The notes under the pieces are model-generated. The model was not told the DNA's origin and did not search any database. It saw only the letters and a program-made list of their open reading frames with translations. Position numbers and translations under genes: made by a program. From a virus (Duplodnaviria; Caudoviricetes), in the IMG/VR virus record IMGVR_UViG_3300007214_000006: DNA of 64,000 nt; one strand, 5' to 3'. Below are positions 3,191 to 43,792 of the stretch, one piece after another (the first letter of the stretch is position 1; each line of letters opens with the position of its first letter).

Positions 3191-4038
3191 ATTACCAAGT
3201 ACACAATATATTACATAGTATTTATTCGAACCAAAGAAATAATCTTAATATTTTTTATACATACAATTTCAGTCTTTTCGATAAAATAATTATAGATATC
3301 CCAGGCATCAATTTTTTGCATAATGGAGTATTTTTGAACTGTCCATTATCTTATGCTTTATGTGTGATTAACGACCCCATAGATTTTGCTCAAAATATAA
3401 ATGCATATAATAATCTATATGCCAATAAAATCATATTTTTCCATGAGGAACCAAATGCTTCCTTAAAAAAAGAAGATTTGTTCCTTTTAAAAAACTCTTT
3501 ATCAAGATTCGAATTGTTCTCTTTTAATAAAAACTATGCTTCTTGGTGCAATCCGAATATAAGATCATTAACATATGGAATAAAACCATACACAAAACAA
3601 ATAAATAAAGATAAGGACATAATTCTGCTGTATTCTAATAGCCATAAACAGACAAAGCTAATATACGATAATCTAAAACAAATATATCCAAATACCAAAT
3701 TGCTAGAAATTAATGCTACACAATCCTATGATGATATTATCGAAATCATATCAGAATACAAAATATGTATAGATTTAACATCATATTACAACATATTGTG
3801 CGCTGTGTCTGTCGGTTGCTATGGTATAACAGGACAAAGGGGGTACAAAGACGAATATATAAATCAAATTAAGGATTATCAAGAACTAATTGATATCATA
3901 AAAAAAATACTATCCCAATTTGAATCAAATACCGACAGTATGCAAAAATATATTGCGGATAATTACTCGTATGAATTTTTTATAGAAAATATCAAACACA
4001 TAGTCACAAATTATTCCAAAAAGGCTGTTATATTATGA
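3181..4038 (+). CDS. Glycosyltransferase-like protein, divergent
   Basis: YDDIIEIISEYKICIDL..CAVSVGCYGIT resembles a GT-B C-terminal domain; cluster context. Confidence 0.4.
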   Translation: MSINYQVHNILHSIYSNQRNNLNIFYTYNFSLFDKIIIDIPGINFLHNGVFLNCPLSYALCVINDPIDFAQNINAYNNLYANKIIFFHEEPNASLKKEDLFLLKNSLSRFELFSFNKNYASWCNPNIRSLTYGIKPYTKQINKDKDIILLYSNSHKQTKLIYDNLKQIYPNTKLLEINATQSYDDIIEIISEYKICIDLTSYYNILCAVSVGCYGITGQRGYKDEYINQIKDYQELIDIIKKILSQFESNTDSMQKYIADNYSYEFFIENIKHIVTNYSKKAVIL

Positions 4039-31894: not shown

Positions 31895-34800
31895 TTAGGC
31901 TTGATCAAAAGGATTAATTAGTGGCGCTCCTGCTGTTTGATTTAATGCTGTTAGTTCAGCAAATTTTTCTCTTATAGAATCCATAGCAATATCTTGTAGA
32001 TCTGGTGATAACTTATTCAATGCAGAATCTCCATTAATTATCACATTATGAGTATGTGTTACTGTTATAGTTATTTCCTGTGGTATAGCACTTAATCCGG
32101 CCAAAGTATCGGCTACGCTCTTAAGTCTATTGGTAAATTCACCAATCTTATTAAGAGTATCCGTATCAATAGATGATACACCATTTGTAGTTGTTGTGGT
32201 CAAACCGCCACCAATAGCAGAGGATGCGTTTTGAAAACCCGTAGTGATAGCGCTTGTAATTTGGCCAAAGATATCACCCATAAAAGAAGATAAATTGAAA
32301 CTGCTATTATTTGCTGACGTTATACCAGCTGTTTCGTAATAGTTGGGGAATATAATCCCGCCGCCTGATAAATATTTTACTATTCCTCCCCTGCTATAGT
32401 GGCCTTCATTTATAGCTTTTAGAACAGGTAGGTGCTTTTGAGTAGCAGCCCTATTAACTACAAATTCTCCGGGTGTTAGCATCGCAGGAACGGTATCTGT
32501 GCCTCTTGGTTGATAATTAACTAATGCTCCTTTGCTAGCATAAACTACCCCTCCGTTTGACATGGTTGCTGTTTGTTGAGCTGCTTCTTCTGCTTTTTTA
32601 GTTTGTTCTTCTTTTAGTGCTCCTGTGGCAATAATTATTTGAGCAACTTGGTTTGCGGTAAGGGTGTCTCTTCCGTTTTCTAAATTTAATAATGGTTTAT
32701 AAGATTGTGAAAATTCATTCCAGTTTTTACTACCCTCATCAGATTTCATTGCTTTTAAGGATGTTGCCAGAAATTTATAATCAAGAGCTTCGACCCAATT
32801 ATCGGAACGACCCAGCTCGGTATCGTTTGGCTCACCAGTTGCCATTCCAGTATTAACCAACCGATCAAATTGATGGAAATACCATTGTAGGCTTTCTAAT
32901 CTGTCTATTTTTTCTTCTCTTAATGCATCAGTAGGAATAATAGATTCTCCGTATTTATTTTTTCCTGATGTATAGAATGATATTAATTGATCAAATAGAT
33001 TAGATCTAGTACCTATATCCGGAAAAACTCTTTGAGGATCAAGAGCTAATTCTCTAACCTTATTCCAACTATCAGGGGTAACATCTTTTTCTACCTTGGC
33101 CTGTCCTGATGCTCCAAAAGCATAACTATCTCCTTTTGCAACTCCTAATGGATTGCCTTTTTCGTCAACCGGCTGTTCATATGCGGTGCTTGTCATACTG
33201 CCTGTTTTAATCATAATTTCTCTATTTATAATAGATTGTAATAATTCAGGAGATGCCCCGGTATAATTTTTGTAATATCTTATAACATTATTTCCTAAAG
33301 TGCTTTTTTCTATTAAAGGCTCACTAAATGCATCGTCCGCCATATTCACACCAAGATTTTGTAATAATTTAGCATCTTTATTATTATATATCTCGGCAAA
33401 TGCTGCCCTCCATGCATCTATACTGTGTCTAGCATAACTATCACTAGGAGCATTGGCGGGAATTTTGGAACTTATTGCAATAGCTGTGTTTCCTATATCT
33501 GCTATAGTAGTAATGTCTTTTTGTAGTGCTTCCTGCACATTTTTGGGTGATGATGTTTTAGCTAATTTATAGAACGCTCTAGCCAATGTTATTCTTTTAG
33601 CATCATTTACTTTGGCTAATTCGTCCATAGAAAAATCAGACTTAACTGCTGAAATTGCTTTTTCTTTTTCTATTTTATCTAGATTTTTTTGTCTAGCCTC
33701 TAAAAATTTAGAAAAATCATATGGAACCTCGGGATGATCTTCATTAGATAATGTAAAAGGCTCGACATTTGGATATGATGAAGGATCAAGGAATTGGGTT
33801 GTTTTGAAATTTGTTTGCTCTCCAGATAAGATCTTAGTAAGGCTGTTATTTAGGTCGGTTGTCCAAATAACGCTGCCTTGAGGAATAATGCCACCAGCAA
33901 AAGGATTAACAGGACTAATATCGGGTGATTGTGGCTCTATAAAAGCGTACCTTGGGCTTATAGGCTCATCAGTGTATCTACGTGAACCCATATTGAATTT
34001 AAGGCTTGGAGCTAGATATCTGCGATATGTAAATTGAAGACCATCTTTATTATATTCTTCAATTTTACTATTAACGTTTTTCTTAACTAGTTCAATATTA
34101 TCTTGGATATTTCCAAAGACAGAATTATAGTCCTCGGGGGTAAAGCCAGCATCTGTCCAAGCGAAAGATTTAATGTTATTATTCGCTAGATCTTTCAGCT
34201 TAATAAAGTCATCACCAGTTTCTGAAAAATTAAATGACTTTTGAGCTTTTAATGCTGATATTCGACCAGAATAGTCTGACCATTTTTTACTGATATTTTC
34301 GTTATAAAGAGTTAATGGACTTTGGTATCCCTCTATTGTTTTATTGAACGGGGCGCTTGGGATAGTGTTATTAAATAAATTTTGAAAGTTTGATATTCTC
34401 TCTTTATTTTTCAAAGACTCTTCTGTTTCTTTAAATGATTTTTTATCTTTTAAAATAGAATGTGTTGTTGTTAAATTTTCTTGTAAAATAAAAATTTTAT
34501 TTAAATAATCGCTTAAATAGGACATAGAGTCACCAAGATCATCAGATACTATCTCTGTTGCAAAATTTTGATTTCGTAATGGTTTTGCTGCTATTTTTGG
34601 CAAATAGTTTCCTCCTCCTATGTATTCGCCTGCATCAAACGTAACGGTATTAGAATTTCCGGCATTAGCTTTAAATAGATCATTGACTTCTGATGGCAGC
34701 AATAAAGCCCCATCAGAAATATTAGAAGCAGATTGGGTCAGATTTTTAATCACCCATGTAACCTGATTATTTTTTAGTTTCTCTTCTTTTCCTGGACTTA

Positions 34801-37800
34801 TTGTACCATCTGCATTACGTATTAAGGACGTTTTAGTATTTTTTGTTGAAACAGAAAAGGATGGTGATGCCTGATTTGGTTTTATCTTATTAAGATCATA
34901 AATTATTTTATTTTTTCTTGCTGTTATTAATTCACCATTATTTTTATCTATAAAAGGTAGCATTTCTGATATTTTATTTGTTTTTTCTATAATATCATTT
35001 AAAATTGCCGATCCTTCTTCTATGCTTAAAGATGTTGTTTGATTTGTAGCATCGTCAATCCATTTTCTAGATGGAAGCTCAGTGAATTTTCTGGATAATT
35101 TATGTTTACTTTGGAACTTTAATGGCACAGAGTTATTGCTTGTTGATTGAATTTCATCAACACCGGTACCGAGCCCCCAAAATAAAGATTTTCCTGTTAT
35201 TAATCTGTTTATATTTTTAGGTCTATTTATATCTTTGTTTTCATATAATTCGTCTGATGATAATAAATCTTCTTGAGATCTTGAGCTTAAAGCATAACCA
35301 ATATTATCAAAGAAATAAAATTTTTCTTTTGTAATATCATTAGCGTTAATATATTTCCAATTTATATTATCTAATTTTATGCTTTTATTAGTCCTACTTG
35401 TCTGTTCGTAATCTCTTTCGGCTTTGTCTTCTCTTTCTTTTTCGTCAGCTATATTTGACCATTTCTCATCTACAGCAACGTATCCTCCATCAGCATAATA
35501 TTTTACCCTACCTCCACTACTATATCCTCCACTATTAATTTTATTTAATAACGGTAAATGTTTTTGCGTTGCTGATCGATTAACCACAAACTCGCCAGGA
35601 GTTAACATAGCAGGAACAGTATCTGTGCCTTTTGGCTGAAAATTTACTAATTGTCCAGCAGCAGCGTATATTATACCTCCTGAGCTGAAACCGTCTGCTC
35701 CCATAGCCCCTGGTTTATTTTCAACAACCTGTCTTAACAGTTTAATTTCGTTTACAACATCGTTTAATTGAGCTCCCTCAAAGGTAAATTTAAATGTACT
35801 CATTACTGATGCAAGTTTTGTGGCCGCTGTTTCTTCGGTATTTTTGGCTATGGCTAAATTTAAAAGACCAAGTTCTTTATTTGCAAGTGCCTGTAAATCA
35901 ACTGCTTTTTTATATTCGGCGATTGCTGCTTGCATCTCAGGGTCACCTTCTGGATTTCTTAATGACTGAAGGACCTCTGCCATCATAGAATTAACGCCAA
36001 CACCACTCTCCATAAGCATGCTTTCCAAAACATTAGCTTTCATTTCGTTTTGTTTTTCGCCAAGAAATGGTGCTATCATATTAAAAGCATCCAAACTTTC
36101 TTTTCTCTGTTCTGCACTACTACCAAAGTTAATTCCGCCCTGCATATTATTATTTAATCTGTCCATTGCCCTATTTAGCTGACTAAATTCTTGAGGACTA
36201 CTAGTCACCAGCCTTTCGGCCATATTGACACCGGCCTGTCTTTTTTGTTGTATCTCATTAATCTTGGCCATTGCGATACTGGCCATTTCGGTATTGTCTG
36301 CCATGCTCTTTAATGCGTCATAATTTTCTCTAAGAGCAATATTTGTATTTCTTAGCCTGTCTTGCATTAATTTAAATTCGTCAGCTCCACCAAAACCTCT
36401 TTGGCCAGCAGTATTACTCATGCTTTGTTGAGTTGCTCTTCTATCTTCCAATCTTCTAATATTTTGAGCTATAGCTGCCGGATCAGTTATTCCTCCAGTT
36501 TGACTTCTAACTCCAGCAGTAGCAACGTTCATTTGATCTCTCAAAGATATCTCTTTTCCAAGAACTTTATCCAATTCCATTTGACCTCTAATTTGTATAT
36601 CAGAAGCTCTTCTCATTCTAGAATTAGCTTCTACTTGTAAATCAACCATTTGATTCATGCTATTTGCATAATCATTTAATCCATTTTGCCAATGTTCTAA
36701 TGCTTTGAGTGCTGCTTCTTGTGCTCTTCTTGTAGCATCCATAACTTTTCCAAGTTGAGGAACTTTTTCCATTAAATCTCCAAAATCTATCTTTTCATCA
36801 CCCTTTTGTCTAATTTGTCCTATAGCTTCATTGACTTGCTTGCTTAGTTTTGCAGATAAATCTGGCGGTATTTTTAGGTCTTCGAGTGCTTTTGATATAT
36901 TGCTTTGTATCCTGATTCCAATTTTTTCATTTCCAGCTGTTGGGTCTTCTTTTATCGTTTTGTTAATAGTTGACATTATAGTATCTTCTATCGCTCCTCC
37001 AGCTTGTAATAATCCTTTCATTGTTGCTGATTCTGATCCAAACATATTGGCTGCATTTTGTGCGGCAGATGCTCTCTCGGTTTTGTTGTAAGCCCTTGGG
37101 TTTTGTAACACATTCATGCTTTTTAACGCAACTTGACCAGCTTTTGCATTTCCAGACAAAGCAGATGCTGATAGCTCTGCTTGTTGACTTAAATTATTTA
37201 ATTGAAAAACATTACGTCCAATAGCTTGTTCCATATTCTGAAACATTCTTTCTAAGCTATTTTGTAAATGATTTGCTGATCTATTTAGCTCTTCCAAAGA
37301 TTTTTCTTTTAGGATTTTTGTTTGAATTTCTCTAGCTTTTCTTTCACCGTTTGCTGCTATAATACCAGCGATCATTGCTGATTTTTGTTCTTTTTGAATA
37401 TTTGTGCTATTTTCAATATTCATAATCTGTTCTTGTACAGATGCGTCCGCTAAAGCAAGACTTCTAATAAAGGAGTCGAACTGGGGTTTATTTTCTGTCT
37501 CCAGATCAGATATAGATGTTCCAGATTTAATATTACTAGTTAAAAATTGTTGAGTAGCCTCTGCTGCCCCACGAAAATCAGCAGCTCTATCTCTTGACTT
37601 TTGTGGAATTAATGTAGAATATTGTCTAGATAATCCTATATCTGACGAAGAGTATCCTAAAGAATTTTTATTGGACATTCCAAACATGTTTGATATCGGA
37701 TCTTCTAGTGTTTGTATATACGAGCCAACGCCTTTTGAAAATAATACTTCTGATCTTTTATCTACATTTTCTCCATAATCAAAAAGATTTGCAAATCCTA

Positions 37801-40800
37801 ATTGAGGTTTATTTTTTGCCGTTATAACATTTTCTGTCTGTCCTATGGTCTGCAATACCTGCGTCCTAGCTGTTTCTTTAACGGATCTATCTTTTAAATT
37901 TTCAGAAAATTTTTGTAAACTATTATTTGTTATTTCTATTGATGTCTCTAATTTTTTTTGTTCTGACGATATTGCAAATTCTCTAGCGGCATTTTCAGCA
38001 TCAATAAAGGCTTTTGTCAATCCTATTACTGCTGTCGTCACCATTGCAACTGGTCCAGCAAATTTGGCGATACCACCCATACCTTGTGTCATCTCACTAA
38101 CCATAGACCCCATCATCACAGAGCTGCCTATGGCAGTAGTCGCTCCCTGAGTTAGCGATTGTGATCTTGCTTGACTTGCTGTTTTTGCTTCTCCTCCAGC
38201 AAACAAATCGCCTATCATCGGAATAGCCATACTTAGCATAAAAGCTCTATTCATTGCACTATTTTGTCTATCTCCAGATGATCCGGCTGCTACTGCTCTT
38301 CCTCCTACAAGCCCACCATTGTTTCTTCTTCTATTCGCAGCATTTCCAGCTAAAATAGCTTGTGAACCAGCACCCCCTCTACCAAATCCTGCGTCTATCA
38401 AAGCTTGTTTTCTTGCTGCTGGGTCTAATGCCCTAAAACTATCACTTTGAGTTAAATCTCTCATAGAAGCCGATGCTCTACGACCAGCTGCAACAGGAGC
38501 AATTCTGCTATTGGCAGTTGTTTGAGCATTTCTTGCTTGTTCTTGTGAAGAAAATGGCATTACTCCAATATTTTTTAATGTGTCTGGTAATACATTAGAA
38601 ACCAAATTTCTAGCCCTTAATCCAGTTGATCTTATTGCTCCTCCTATTCCTCCAAGTCTATTTTGTCTTATTCGTTGAATTTCTTCTTGTCTATCTCGTC
38701 TCTTATCACTGGAGTATATACTATCATAATAATCTCTACCAGTTTGATTGCCTCCAGCGCGTCTCTTAGGATTATATCTACTAGACGGTCCAGAAACATC
38801 AGTCATTATTGTTTTCAAGCCTTGCTTATACTGCATAACTGCTGTTTTTTTTGCTTGTGCTATCTCTTTATCTGATTTTAATGACATTTTCATTAATTGA
38901 TTCGTCACCTGAGCATCAGTTAGATTTACTCCATATTGTTTTAGAGCAGCTTGTTTTATTCTCAGTATTCTTTGATCGATATCTATTGTGTCTGTTGCAT
39001 ATTTTTTTTGTATAGCTTGTATTCTATCGTCTCTTTCTTGACGAATGTTTCTTCTTAATGTTCTAGCCTGTGGTGTTGCTTCTGCAGTTTGCTGTCTTTG
39101 TTGCTGTCTCCTTCTAATTCTGGCTCTAATTTTATCTTCTCTTTGTTGAAGAGCATCTGCTTCTCCAGCTCTTATATCATATGTCATACCAGATCTTATA
39201 TATTGTCCTGGCTCTAATGGTCTAACAGTTGTTCCTCTCGCAAACTTCTGAACAACTCCACCATTATGATATTTATTTAATTTATGGAGATTAGAATATC
39301 CTATAGCTTGAGCAGAATGTCTGTTAATAACATACTCGCCCTCTTGGGCCATGATGGGTATTTCTCCACCAGCAGCATATCTACCTCTAGCTCTTAAATA
39401 TTTTTTTTGCTCTGTGGTTCTACCTTCATAATCAGAACTTCCTAGTCCTTGTCTTTGTTTCCATGTTGCTATTCTGTCTTGTTTTTGCATTATGGAGCCC
39501 TGTACCTTTTCAAGCAATCCAGCAGGCCCCGTATAAGGTCTTAAAGATTTTGGCAGCTTTTGGCTTTCACTGGGAATTCCCCAATCAGTATAAAATAAAT
39601 CGCCTTTTGCGTTTCTTTTTGTAAATTCAGCTATAGCTTCTTCTGGGGTTAATGTTTTACCAGTAACCTCTCTCATTGCTTTTACAACATCATCTTTTAA
39701 ATATTTCGATCCTCCATGAGTTATCAATTCTGGTCCTGATTCAGGAGCGCCTCCCTCGCTTAATTTTTGTACGGCTCCACCAAAAGCAAAACCTCTAGCT
39801 TTAAGATAATTAGTAATATTGCTGGGTATTTTGCCTCTTGGTCCAGTTAAGGTTCTTTTGGCATCAACGGGAATATTAGCAAGCAAAGAATTATTAAACC
39901 AATTTCTTGCTATGGTTGCGCCAAGACCATAAGGAAAGTCAACGCTTCTATGAATCTCAGCTTCTTGTGCCATTGCCCCATATAGTTGGGGCGCAGTTTC
40001 TTTAAGATAAGAACTAATTTCATTTTGAAATTTAGCCCCCTGGCTATCTGCTATTGCTTTTTTAGAGGCTCTATCTTTATCAAATGTTAGTCCATAAGTA
40101 TATGATTTGATATTTGATGCTTTTGCGGCCATAATATTTTCTGCAGCATCATCAACAAACACACTCGAAGATGACCCGGCGGCTTCTAATATTGTGTTTG
40201 CTTTTGCTACTCCAACAGCCTTATCTGACATACCGCTTCCACCGACACCTCTAACATTACCAGCCGGTATTGGTAAACCCTTTGAAGCCAACCATGAGGC
40301 AATAGCTCCCATTGTATTTTGAGGTCTAGCACTTACAACATACATATTCGACAATAAAGAAGATAACTGATCTGGCATTCTCTTTCGAGTTTTATTAACC
40401 AAACGCACCAGACCAGACATTAATATGCTGGGTTTTGCTTTCTGTAAGCCTCTGGTTACCAAATCAAGATCACCAAAAGCTGTATAGTCTGGTTTTGTTC
40501 CCTTTTTAGCTTTGTATCCTATTGGATCTGTTTTAAGTGCTAGCGTCTTATCAAAATCAAAAAATGCCTTTGTTCCCGAACCGCCAGATAAAGCCTCAAG
40601 AATACTTTTTGTTAATCTCTCATTATTTCTTTTTCTAACACCAGATAATTCTTCTCTTGTATATTCTTTATCTAATTTAGATGCTATTGGAGCATTTTTT
40701 ATATCTATATAATTAGGATCATTTAGTTGTAACGATTTTAGTCTTGCGGCTCTAGCTGCTTTATTTTTGTCTAATACGGCACCAAAGACTCTAACAGTAA

Positions 40801-43792: not shown

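What the first reader, a model, noticed from the sequence alone, without database searches (positions are those of the whole stretch)
32350..42215. Five GG-flanked modules punctuate the TMP like cassette boundaries or processing sites
Seen: a module of the form [FYK]A/S-x-GG...P/E-G-E/S-[FYA]-V-[IV]...GG recurs at ~42100-42215, 41912-42082, 39230-39380, 35480-35692 and 32350-32565. Its edges read YAAGG, KAAGG, FAQGG, FAFGG, LSEGG, YAAGG, YHNGG, FSSGG, YSSGG, YADGG, MSNGG, YSRGG and LSGGG. The non-helical cargo regions lie exactly between modules. The GEFV motif itself is common in TMPs (established). Inference: the xxxGG sites are either protease cleavage sites that release cargo, as with ubiquitin-like di-Gly sites, or homology anchors for recombinational cargo exchange.
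Basis: partly seen in the sequence, partly recalled or inferred. Interest (0 to 1): 0.78.

Follow-up and report, generated by a model that had tools for sequence, protein, structure and literature searches.

The report
Repeated connector module in giant tape-measure protein
A 3,965-residue phage tail tape-measure protein is built like beads on a string, each bead ending in the same conserved glycine-flanked connector that also occurs once in phage lambda's tape measure near where that protein is cut, so the connector is a real, widespread but uncatalogued building block whose role (joint, cutting site, or both) is now testable.

Summary
ORF 31895-43792 (-) is a 3,965-aa tape measure protein (TMP) with five copies of a 55-75-aa module: xAxGG boxes, an AMLTPGEFV core, then YxxGG boxes. 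A sixth GG-box pair has no core. The module is absent from Pfam and NCBIfam, yet it matches about 32,000 protein clusters. It also matches lambda gpH (aa 732-788), mycobacteriophage Douge and Gordonia phage TMPs.

All 120 giant homologues examined share one grammar: every segment ends in a module. Similarity between homologues stops and restarts at the GG boxes: 57% of long alignment ends fall there, against 6.6% expected. The slot after the second module holds folded enzymes. These are a HAD phosphatase here and an ADP-ribosyltransferase in a homologue. The "third cargo" is instead a conserved family domain.

The module is under strong protein-level selection (dN/dS 0.07) and is position-specific, so it is not merely a DNA recombination anchor.

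Cleavage is plausible but unproven. Lambda gpH is cut in the glycine run just before its module. The mapped T5 cut (R1127|AEGG) lies in that protein's best GG-box match, before the GG rather than after it. No protease was found. The ubiquitin-like reading is unsupported.

The parts
31895..43792 (-). Tape measure protein gene, 3,965 aa (P0001)
   Evidence: ORF. Pfam PhageMin_Tail at aa 190-384, E 1e-21. PHROG TMP families. 870 giant homologues found.
42251..43792 (-). N block (aa 1-514), conserved TMP N-terminal region
   Evidence: About 100% of 119 homologues align here. The PhageMin_Tail domain lies here.
42065..42250 (-). Module M1 (aa 515-576), short subtype: YAAGG ... LMPGEAVI ... KAAGG
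   Evidence: HMM i-E 1e-13. Alignments. Orthologous M1 copies are 62% identical between phages.
41891..42085 (-). Module M2 (aa 570-634): KAAGG ... GNSDSFYTTLPEGSFVI ... FAQGG
   Evidence: HMM i-E 8e-17. Homologue similarity ends at the FAxGG box. Homologue coverage drops from 0.76 to 0.13 just after it.
39797..41890 (-). Variable payload slot (aa 635-1332): folded alpha/beta domains, including a HAD phosphatase at aa about 1075-1335
   Evidence: AF2 mean pLDDT 79.8. Foldseek finds AphA, phosphoserine phosphatase and T4 Pnkp phosphatase. DxDxT, TARP, K and DD motifs are nearly invariant in 45 sequences. Homologue P0086 carries an ADP-ribosyltransferase in this slot.
39707..39796 (-). GG-box pair without a core (aa 1333-1362: FAFGG, LSEGG, THGG) that closes the HAD cassette
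   Evidence: In 13 of 32 homologues the same box runs straight into a full module. In 19, including this protein, it runs into other sequence. AF2 pLDDT is below 50 at aa 1338-1352. G708/G709 are nearly invariant in alignment A4.
39224..39391 (-). Module M3 (aa 1468-1523), short subtype: YAAGG-EIPIMAQEGEYVIN ... YHNGG
   Evidence: HMM i-E 1e-17. It is an island of conservation inside variable sequence.
35702..38305 (-). B block (aa about 1830-2697): glycine-rich hydrophobic stretch plus a long conserved region rich in helix-forming residues
   Evidence: 88-95% of homologues align over aa 1921-2700; coverage rises from 0.36 across aa 1831-1920. Composition is rich in helix formers.
35468..35701 (-). 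Module M4 (aa 2698-2775), long subtype: FSSGG ... GTDTVPAMLTPGEFVVN ... YSSGG, YADGG
   Evidence: HMM i-E 2e-32. 65% aa and 70% nt identity to M5. Similarity to homologues decays just after YADGG.
32576..35467 (-). D domain (aa 2776-3739), about 970 aa, non-helical composition, function unknown
   Evidence: Homologous in 112 of 120 family members, one copy each, median profile coverage 83%. Length is a constant 930-1,100 aa. Composition is rich in aromatic and helix-breaking residues.
32339..32575 (-). Module M5 (aa 3740-3818), long subtype: MSNGG ... GTDTVPAMLTPGEFVVN ... YSRGG, LSGGG
   Evidence: HMM i-E 8e-31. It sits 150 aa from the C-terminus, as the single lambda module sits 65 aa from its C-terminus.
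31898..32338 (-). C-terminal tail (aa 3819-3965), presumed tip-binding plug
   Evidence: 70-84% of homologues align. The role is assigned by analogy to lambda gpH 818-849 and Douge 1658-1699, which are resolved inside the hub (PMC10721106, PMC13033339).

Best explanation
Each "GG-flanked module" is a copy of a conserved tape-measure connector that acts at the protein level. Its core is an extended AMLTPGEFV[VI]N stretch followed by two short helices. The core is bracketed by [K/R/F/Y]-[A/S]-x-G-G-hydrophobic-hydrophobic boxes, which lie in flexible linker.

One connector closes every segment of the TMP, so the protein is a string of beads:
- N-terminal TMP domain;
- an exchangeable enzyme slot (here nuclease-like plus HAD phosphatase);
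- a membrane/helical rod;
- a conserved 1,000-aa D domain;
- a C-terminal plug.
Seen from the tail tip, where tube assembly starts, each bead begins with a connector.

Shown here:
- the module is real and ancient;
- it is position-specific and under purifying selection;
- it is universal in this TMP family and present in lambda, actinophage and other TMPs;
- sequence novelty (gain, loss and swapping of beads) begins and ends exactly at its GG boxes.

Inferred (about 40%): the connectors are also where the TMP is cut after tail assembly, as lambda gpH is cut to gpH* plus gpHC and T5 pb2 to pb2* plus pb2C. The beads would then enter the host as separate proteins. The cut would fall on the N-terminal side of a GG box (T5: R|AEGG), not after GG. 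The protease is unidentified and may be host-encoded.

If no cut occurs, the same element would serve as an uncut joint or docking piece.
For: Module reality:
- HMM scores and GG-box enrichment.
- 719 modules in 120 of 120 homologues, 4-9 each.
- 31,992 cluster representatives match the profile, with up to 13 modules per protein.
- tblastn finds the module in 162 cultured-phage records. In the 40 rows shown, 39 hits lie under annotated TMPs and one lies in an unannotated record.
- PDB-sequence matches: Douge gp16 (two copies, E 1.6e-13) and lambda gpH 732-788 (E 1.3e-4).

Grammar: N-M(-M)-[variable]-M(-M)-[linker]-B-M-[D]-M-{[variable]-M}n-C in all 120 homologues.

Boundaries:
- coverage profile of this protein;
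- 296 of 666 alignment endpoints near modules against 91 expected;
- 57% against 6.6% family-wide;
- residue-level junction alignments.

Folded payload between connectors:
- AF2 pLDDT 79.8 with a HAD fold and nearly invariant HAD motifs;
- an ADP-ribosyltransferase in the same slot of P0086;
- an SLT domain between modules 2 and 3 of the Gordonia phage Annalisa TMP.

Flexible flanks: pLDDT is below 50 at aa 631-655 and 1338-1352, and the module's GG boxes have low pLDDT while the core reaches 80-86.

Protein-level selection: dN/dS 0.07 with pS 0.74, and about 35 of 69 columns carry more than 2.5 bits.

Cleavage precedents:
- Lambda loses about 14 kDa from the "glycine-rich region", by an unknown protease (PMC12617516). 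Fragments of 78 and 14 kDa fit a cut at aa about 710-725, just N-terminal of the module.
- T5 pb2 is cut after R1127 (PMC10038345). The best GG-box PSSM match in all 1,219 residues is PRAEGGMMYP at 1126-1135. Only 1.5% of shuffles reach that score.
- K/R is enriched at position -3 of the first GG box, 33% against 12% background.
Against: - There are no proteomic data for this phage or any relative, so cleavage here is pure inference.
- The module HMM finds nothing in T5 pb2. The T5 link therefore rests on a 10-residue PSSM.
- The lambda cut is known only from gel masses (PMC12617516).
- No recognisable protease was found in the 123-kb record, which is 82% complete.
- No nucleophile is conserved across all module subtypes, so self-cleavage is unlikely.
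- The AF2 monomer model of the module has low overall confidence, pLDDT 63.5.
- The module has not been resolved in the lambda or Douge cryo-EM maps (PMC10721106, PMC12617516, PMC13033339), so its partner and fold are unknown.
- Alignment-endpoint counts use non-independent homologue pairs.
Confidence: 0.5

Rival explanations
1. The connector is an uncut structural or assembly element. Each module would dock to a repeated partner such as the tail-assembly chaperone, the tube lumen or the distal-tail/hub ring. Alternatively it would re-nucleate tube polymerisation past a non-helical insert. In this reading the GG boxes are only hinges and the TMP stays in one piece.
For: - The long, highly conserved core (about 35 strongly conserved columns) suggests a bound or folded element rather than a mere cleavage site.
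- Every segment has exactly one module at the end that faces the tail tip.
- The last module is always 60-280 aa from the C-terminus, as in lambda, Douge and Annalisa.
- In T5 the 43 residues just upstream of the cut dock in the opened hub (PMC10038345).
- Position-specific subtypes have been kept for a long time.
Against: - No partner was identified.
- This reading does not explain why the two known TMP cuts (lambda, T5) fall beside GG boxes.
Confidence: 0.3
2. Ubiquitin-like di-Gly processing, the first reader's version: a deubiquitinase-type protease (JAB/MPN+ or Ulp/clan CE) cuts immediately after each GG and releases the cargo.
For: - Lambda gpK carries a JAMM motif (HSHPGGLPWLSEAD) and is annotated as a C40 family peptidase.
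- From general knowledge: JAMM and clan CE proteases cut after Gly-Gly, and adenovirus and ASFV core polyproteins are cut at GG-X.
- The GG pairs are 95-100% conserved.
Against: - PF14464 (JAB), PF00877 (NlpC/P60) and PF02902 (C48) give no match in the record.
- The mapped T5 cut is R|AEGG, two residues before the GG.
- The lambda fragment masses place the cut upstream of the module rather than after its YATGG box.
- The AF2 model shows no ubiquitin-like beta-grasp fold before the GG: no strands are called and the only elements are short helices.
Confidence: 0.06
3. The modules are pure DNA-level recombination anchors. They would be kept because they provide homology for cassette exchange and would have no protein function.
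For: Cassette boundaries coincide with modules. The number of modules scales with the number of segments.
Against: - M4 and M5 share only 70% nt identity, with exact runs of at most about 11-12 nt. Synonymous sites are saturated (pS 0.74) and dN/dS is 0.07.
- There is no homogenisation between positions within a gene.
- The amino-acid pattern is conserved across Bacteroidota-like, actinobacterial, cyanobacterial and proteobacterial phages whose GC contents presumably differ widely.
Confidence: 0.05
4. The core is a divergent LysM-like peptidoglycan-binding motif that tethers ejected TMP segments in the cell wall.
For: The profile search of PDB sequences gave weak hits to two LysM domains (E 0.38 and 1.3). 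The strand, two-helix order and the G-[DE]-x-[LV] ... L-x-x-x-N pattern look similar by eye.
Against: - hhalign of 451 modules against eight E. coli LysM domains gives probability below 1% in all modes.
- None of the 40 modules hits Pfam LysM.
Confidence: 0.03

Closest known systems
Phage lambda gpH (tape measure) C-terminal region, cleaved to gpH* and gpHC
   Same: It contains one copy of the same module (aa 732-788, profile E 1.3e-4). The order is the same: glycine-rich hydrophobic stretch, then module, then a short C-terminal helix that plugs the tip. The TMP is cut beside the module (PMC12617516).
   Different: Lambda has one module, not five, and no inserted enzymes. It lacks the GTDTVP segment of the long subtype. 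Its cleavage site and protease are still not defined at residue level.
Phage T5 pb2, cleaved after R1127 into pb2* and the muralytic pb2C
   Same: A TMP cut separates an enzymatic C-terminal piece from the channel-forming rod. The cut lies within the best match to this family's GG box, PR|AEGGMMYP (PMC10038345).
   Different: The full module is not detectable in pb2. There is a single cut and a single small cargo.
Actinophage TMPs with embedded lytic domains (Gordonia phage Annalisa gp18; mycobacteriophage Douge gp16; TM4-type motifs)
   Same: They carry several copies of the same module. In Annalisa an SLT domain (aa 1540-1630) lies between modules 2 and 3, and the last module is about 120 aa from the C-terminus.
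   Different: They are shorter (1,700-2,100 aa). Their cargo is a cell-wall hydrolase rather than a phosphatase or nuclease-like domain. Neither the literature searches run here nor the Douge paper (PMC13033339) mentioned the module.
Thermus phage P23-45 gp96, a 5,002-aa TMP with a fused virion RNA polymerase
   Same: It is a giant TMP that carries a working enzyme into the host through the tail (bioRxiv 10.1101/2022.12.01.518664).
   Different: The enzyme is at the N-terminus. Whether gp96 has this module was not tested here.
Viral structural polyproteins cut at Gly-Gly-X (adenovirus, ASFV pp220/pp62)
   Same: A repeated, conserved di-glycine motif separates the functional pieces of a virion protein. 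This comparison rests on general knowledge only.
   Different: Those systems have a dedicated clan CE protease and short sites. Here no such protease was found, the conserved element is about 65 aa, and the only mapped phage precedent cuts before GG.

Membership tests
Phage tail tape measure protein (Pfam PF10145 PhageMin_Tail / TP901 type) | Match to the family profile above its curated cut-off | tested here: met
   PF10145 scores 78.2 bits against a cut-off of 33.2, at aa 190-384. PHROG TMP families match at E 2e-24.
Phage tail tape measure protein (Pfam PF10145 PhageMin_Tail / TP901 type) | Position in a tail gene block, followed by large tail or tip proteins | tested here: inconclusive
   The downstream ORFs are giant proteins with fn3 and FGE-sulfatase/lectin domains. 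The upstream small ORFs have no family match. The order fits a tail module, but the neighbouring genes are unnamed.
Lambda-gpH-type GG-box/GEFV connector module (uncurated) | Profile match to the lambda gpH 732-788 and Douge gp16 modules: GG box, PGEFV core, L..xN helix, YxxGG box | tested here: met
   Five full copies are present in this protein.
Lambda-gpH-type GG-box/GEFV connector module (uncurated) | A copy lies 60-280 aa from the TMP C-terminus | tested here: met
   M5 ends 150 aa from the end. The same holds in the 118 of 120 homologues that are not cut short at the C-terminus, and in lambda, Annalisa, Douge and 8vjh_Q.
Proteolytically matured TMP (lambda gpH, T5 pb2) | TMP fragments with new termini present in virions | not testable with these tools
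   The phage is uncultured and no proteome exists. Only the precedents are documented (PMC12617516, PMC10038345).
Ubiquitin-like di-Gly processing (JAB/MPN+ or Ulp protease plus GG site) | A cognate JAB or Ulp-type protease is encoded | tested here: not met
   PF14464 and PF02902 give no match at E <= 1 and E <= 10 in the 123-kb record. The record is 82% complete.
Ubiquitin-like di-Gly processing (JAB/MPN+ or Ulp protease plus GG site) | Cleavage immediately after GG | not testable with these tools
   The only mapped TMP cut (T5) is two residues before the GG.
LysM domain (PF01476) | Profile or profile-profile similarity to LysM | tested here: not met
   hhalign probability is below 1%. None of 40 modules hits Pfam LysM.
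Self-cleaving S24/S26-type Ser-Lys peptidase | Invariant Ser nucleophile and Lys general base | tested here: not met
   T or S at column 24 occurs only in long-subtype modules and is missing from M1 and M3. No Lys column is conserved.
HAD-superfamily phosphatase (payload at aa about 1075-1335) | Motifs I-IV (DxDxT, S/T, K, DD) and a Rossmann-like HAD fold | tested here: met
   D449, D451, T453, A-R-P 525-527, K567 and D584-D585 are nearly invariant in 45 sequences. Foldseek finds AphA, PSP and T4 Pnkp phosphatase, with probability 1.00 and TM by target 0.5-0.6. Pfam and NCBIfam hits fall below their cut-offs.

The most novel reading that the evidence does not exclude
Tape measure proteins would be maturation polyproteins. 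In this reading the GG-box/GEFV connector, present in tens of thousands of TMPs including lambda gpH, is the universal signal at which assembled tails cut the TMP. Giant TMPs such as this one would then load the tail lumen with a series of separate ejected proteins (phosphatase, nuclease-like, ADP-ribosyltransferase, channel former). This would also identify the long-unknown lambda gpH* cleavage determinant.
Probability: 0.3. Interest if true: 0.85.

Novelty: new variant of a known kind. Interest (0 to 1): 0.64.

Why it matters
TMPs with embedded enzymes and TMP cleavage are each known from a few model phages. The rule that links them is not known.

This work shows that one conserved, uncatalogued module punctuates TMPs on a very large scale. 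About 32,000 protein clusters carry it, with up to 13 copies per protein. It defines where domains are inserted and exchanged. It also sits next to the only two known TMP maturation cuts.

That yields concrete experiments on lambda itself: mutate or delete gpH 732-788 and its GG boxes. These could answer where and how gpH is processed, a question open since the 1980s.

It also provides a practical annotation rule for splitting giant TMPs into payload domains, and a candidate insertion point for engineering tail-delivered proteins.

Tried and rejected
- Homotrimer prediction of the module (complex prediction, 3 copies): "no answer", score 0.01. It counts as evidence neither way.
- AF2 monomer of M4 with a 40-row alignment: mean pLDDT 63.5. 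Only the core is confident and no strands were called. The model was too weak for a fold search, so none was run on it.
- LysM lead from weak PDB-sequence hits: rejected by hhalign and by the Pfam scan of 40 modules.
- S24/S26-like or Asp-Thr self-cleavage idea, read from the GTDTVP...GEFVV pattern: dropped. The S/T is absent from the M1 and M3 subtypes and from lambda, and no Lys is conserved.
- Module HMM and an N-half HMM against T5 pb2: no hit at all. Only the 10-residue GG-box PSSM is significant.
- Protease hunt in the 123-kb record with PF14464, PF00877, PF04586, PF00574, PF01343, PF02902 and PF01551: nothing found. PHROG and Pfam scans of 25 neighbouring ORFs showed no protease.
- Megablast of the gene against cultured phages: no match.
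- phmmer of the two large inter-module regions against PDB sequences: nothing for aa 631-1470, and only an odd 68-aa hit to a plant-virus capsid protein for the D domain.
- ESM Atlas look-alikes for the D domain: no usable hit.
- Literature searches for the motif, for TMP polyproteins and for further mapped TMP cleavage sites: nothing beyond lambda and T5. JBD30's cut is only predicted.
Full report
**What is there.** The finding lies inside one ORF, window 31895-43792 on the minus strand, encoding 3,965 aa. It is a tape measure protein (TMP). Pfam PhageMin_Tail matches aa 190-384 at E 1e-21, and four PHROG TMP families match. The window belongs to a 122,965-bp IMG/VR virus record estimated 82% complete, with GC content about 25-40%. 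It has no close cultured relative.

**The observation.** In protein coordinates they are M1 515-576, M2 570-634, M3 1468-1523, M4 2698-2775 and M5 3740-3818.
- All 13 quoted xxxGG strings are present.
- A profile built from the modules scores the five copies at i-E 1e-13 to 1e-32.
- The box [FYW][ASHN]xGG occurs 9 times against 0.39 expected, with a maximum of 3 in 2,000 shuffles.
- 16 of the 42 GG dipeptides fall in the 8.4% of the protein covered by modules (P = 1e-7).
- FAFGG and LSEGG (aa 1335-1348) are not part of the five listed modules. They form a sixth GG-box pair that has no PGEFV core.

**Anatomy of the module.** In 419 distinct full-length copies, about 35 of 69 columns carry more than 2.5 bits. 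The consensus reads x-A-x-G-G-Φ-[IV]-Y-A-[SA]-x-G-x-[IV]-N-[FY]-Q-P-[RK]-G-T-D-T-V-P-A-M-L-T-P-G-E-F-V-[VI]-N-[RK]-x-A-T-Q-K-x-L-P-L-L-x-x-I-N-S-G-x-Y-S-x-G-G-x-V-x-Y-[LY]-A-x-G-G.
- Short subtypes (M1, M3) lack the GTDTVP piece.
- AlphaFold2 with a 40-row alignment gives a confident core (pLDDT 80-86) containing short helices, with low-confidence GG-box flanks. Mean pLDDT is 63.5.
- The module is in neither Pfam nor NCBIfam.

**How widespread it is.**
- The profile matches 31,992 cluster representatives out of 1.84 billion at E <= 1e-3. Some proteins of up to 7,872 aa carry up to 13 copies.
- A single-module tblastn finds it in 162 cultured-phage records (Gordonia, Mycobacterium, Nodularia, Ralstonia, Burkholderia and others). 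In the 40 rows shown, 39 hits lie under annotated TMPs and one lies in an unannotated record.
- Among solved tails it matches mycobacteriophage Douge gp16 twice (E 1.6e-13), lambda gpH aa 732-788 (E 1.3e-4) and, weakly, one further TMP.
- In lambda it lies just after the Pfam Tape_meas_lam_C domain (aa 627-701) and a glycine-rich hydrophobic run, 65 aa before the C-terminus.

**The family grammar.** A search found 870 giant TMPs of 2,180-6,939 aa, and I analysed the best 120. All carry 4-9 modules, 719 in total. All share one order: N block, then M(-M), a variable stretch of 150-2,560 aa, M(-M), a linker of 140-800 aa, the B block, M, a stretch of about 930-1,100 aa, M, then n further {variable-M} units, then 100-280 C-terminal residues. 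Every segment ends in a module, and each added segment brings one more.

**Do the variable regions begin and end at modules?** Yes.
- Coverage of this protein by 119 homologues is about 100% through M2 and falls to 13% within 60 residues. It is 95% across the B block and M4 and then falls again. M3 is an island of conservation.
- 296 of 666 internal endpoints of long alignments lie in or near modules, against 91 expected.
- Over all pairs, 57% of alignment ends lie within -15..+40 aa of a module's C-terminal end, against 6.6% expected. Only 16% of alignment starts lie at module starts. These pairs are not independent.
- Junction alignments show similarity running through "...RQKFAxGG" and vanishing within a few residues. 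It reappears at "...RAxGGE(I/V)PI..." or "...xGG(V/I)(V/I)YA...".
- The HAD cassette always ends in "NYLKxKGYAxGG". In 13 of 32 homologues that box runs straight into a full module. In 19, including this protein, it runs into unrelated sequence.
The GG box itself is therefore the junction.

**What lies between the modules.**
- aa 635-1466 was modelled with a 45-row alignment at mean pLDDT 79.8. It forms several folded alpha/beta domains. The disordered stretches fall exactly at aa 631-655, just after M2, and at aa 1338-1352, the GG-box pair without a core.
- Foldseek finds HAD phosphatases: AphA, phosphoserine phosphatase and the T4 Pnkp phosphatase. The four HAD motifs are nearly invariant.
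- In homologue P0086 the same slot holds an ADP-ribosyltransferase domain at aa 1156-1370, between its modules at 579-640 and 1518-1581.
- In the Gordonia phage Annalisa TMP, an SLT domain (aa 1540-1630) sits between modules 2 and 3 and abuts module 3, whose HMM alignment spans aa 1625-1675.
- aa 1521-2700 is not cargo. It is the conserved backbone: a glycine-rich hydrophobic stretch plus a region rich in helix formers.
- The "third cargo" (aa 2776-3739) is homologous in 112 of 120 family members, one copy each, with a constant length. It is a fast-evolving core domain of unknown function, not swappable cargo.

**Protein signal or DNA signal?**
- M4 and M5 are 65% identical in protein and 70% in DNA, with no long exact runs.
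- Synonymous sites are saturated (pS 0.74) and dN/dS is 0.07.
- Modules at the same position in different phages are 61-75% identical. Modules at different positions in one protein are 26-37% identical. M4/M5 are 67% identical within a protein and 66% between proteins.
There is thus no concerted evolution. The copies are ancient and position-specific, and they are kept by selection on the protein. Recombination between orthologous modules of different phages may well move cassettes, but homology for recombination is not why the module exists.

**Cleavage.** Two precedents matter.
- Lambda: gpH loses an approximately 14-kDa C-terminal piece from its "glycine-rich region" after tail assembly. 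The site and the protease are unknown, and gpHC stays in the tip (PMC12617516). Fragments of 78 and 14 kDa fit a cut at about aa 710-725, in the run AIGGAVGGGASASGG just N-terminal of the module.
- T5: pb2 is cut after R1127, which separates the muralytic C-terminal piece (PMC10038345). The sequence there is PR|AEGGMMYP. A 10-residue PSSM built from 500 first GG boxes of this family ranks exactly that position first among all 1,219 residues, at 12.5 bits. Shuffled pb2 reaches that score 1.5% of the time.
- Position -3 of the first GG box is K or R in 33% of modules, against a 12% background.

Against cleavage:
- the full module is not detectable in pb2;
- no nucleophile is conserved across the subtypes;
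- no JAB, NlpC/P60, S78, ClpP, S49, C48 or M23 family is detectable in the record;
- the module is much larger than a protease site.

Lambda gpK does carry a JAMM motif and is annotated as a C40 family peptidase. That keeps a deubiquitinase-style cut conceivable for lambda. The T5 cut, however, is before the GG, and this phage has no such gene.

**Verdict.** The modules are copies of a widespread, uncurated TMP connector that ends every segment of the protein. Its GG boxes are flexible junctions where domains are joined, gained and exchanged. That part is shown. I judge it about 40% likely that the same junctions are maturation cleavage sites, which would make this TMP a polyprotein of ejected proteins. 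Otherwise the connector is an uncut docking or assembly joint. The ubiquitin-like version, a pure DNA-anchor role and a LysM relationship are each unlikely. The closest known systems are lambda gpH/gpH*, T5 pb2, actinophage TMPs with lytic inserts, and the enzyme-fused P23-45 gp96 (bioRxiv 10.1101/2022.12.01.518664).

Noticed in passing
window 39788-40570 (-), aa about 1075-1335 of the TMP: A HAD-superfamily phosphatase domain sits inside the TMP. Its DxDxT, TARP, K and DD motifs are nearly invariant in 45 homologues. The best fold matches are AphA, phosphoserine phosphatase and the T4 Pnkp 3'-phosphatase.
   Followed up: partly
P0086 aa 1156-1370 (homologue); weaker in P0032 aa about 1322-1471: Some family members carry an ADP-ribosyltransferase exoenzyme domain (PF03496) in the same payload slot. 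Precomputed Pfam tags in other members include EF-hand, SHD1 and PF16581. The slot is therefore a variable enzyme bay.
   Followed up: partly
window 33300-33505 (-), aa about 3495-3562 of the TMP (D domain): A 68-residue stretch matches a 242-aa chain labelled "Capsid protein" in PDB entry 4v99 at E 5.6e-5 by phmmer. This is unexplained and may be chance.
   Followed up: no
L015 (phage T5) pb2 aa 1126-1135: The experimentally mapped pb2 cleavage site (R1127|A1128) lies in PRAEGGMMYP. This is the single best match in pb2 to this family's N-terminal GG box.
   Followed up: yes
L005 (phage lambda) gene K: gpK reads ...ALVHSHPGGLPWLSEAD..., a complete JAMM (HxHx7Sx2D) metalloprotease motif, and the gene is annotated as a C40 family peptidase. 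It is a candidate for the unknown gpH-processing activity.
   Followed up: no
window 9208-31868 (-): Three further giant ORFs (1,967, 1,984 and 2,368 aa) follow the TMP. The first has fn3 and FGE-sulfatase/lectin-type domains. The other two have no Pfam match.
   Followed up: no
P0122, P0123 (library hits): The largest relatives are 7,794 and 7,872 aa, with 12-13 modules each. They are among the longest TMP-like proteins seen in this search.
   Followed up: no
window 43875-45067 (-): Two small ORFs (109 and 288 aa) sit just upstream of the TMP, where tail-assembly chaperones usually lie. They overlap by 4 nt rather than showing an obvious G/GT-type frameshift, and they have no family match.
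   Followed up: no
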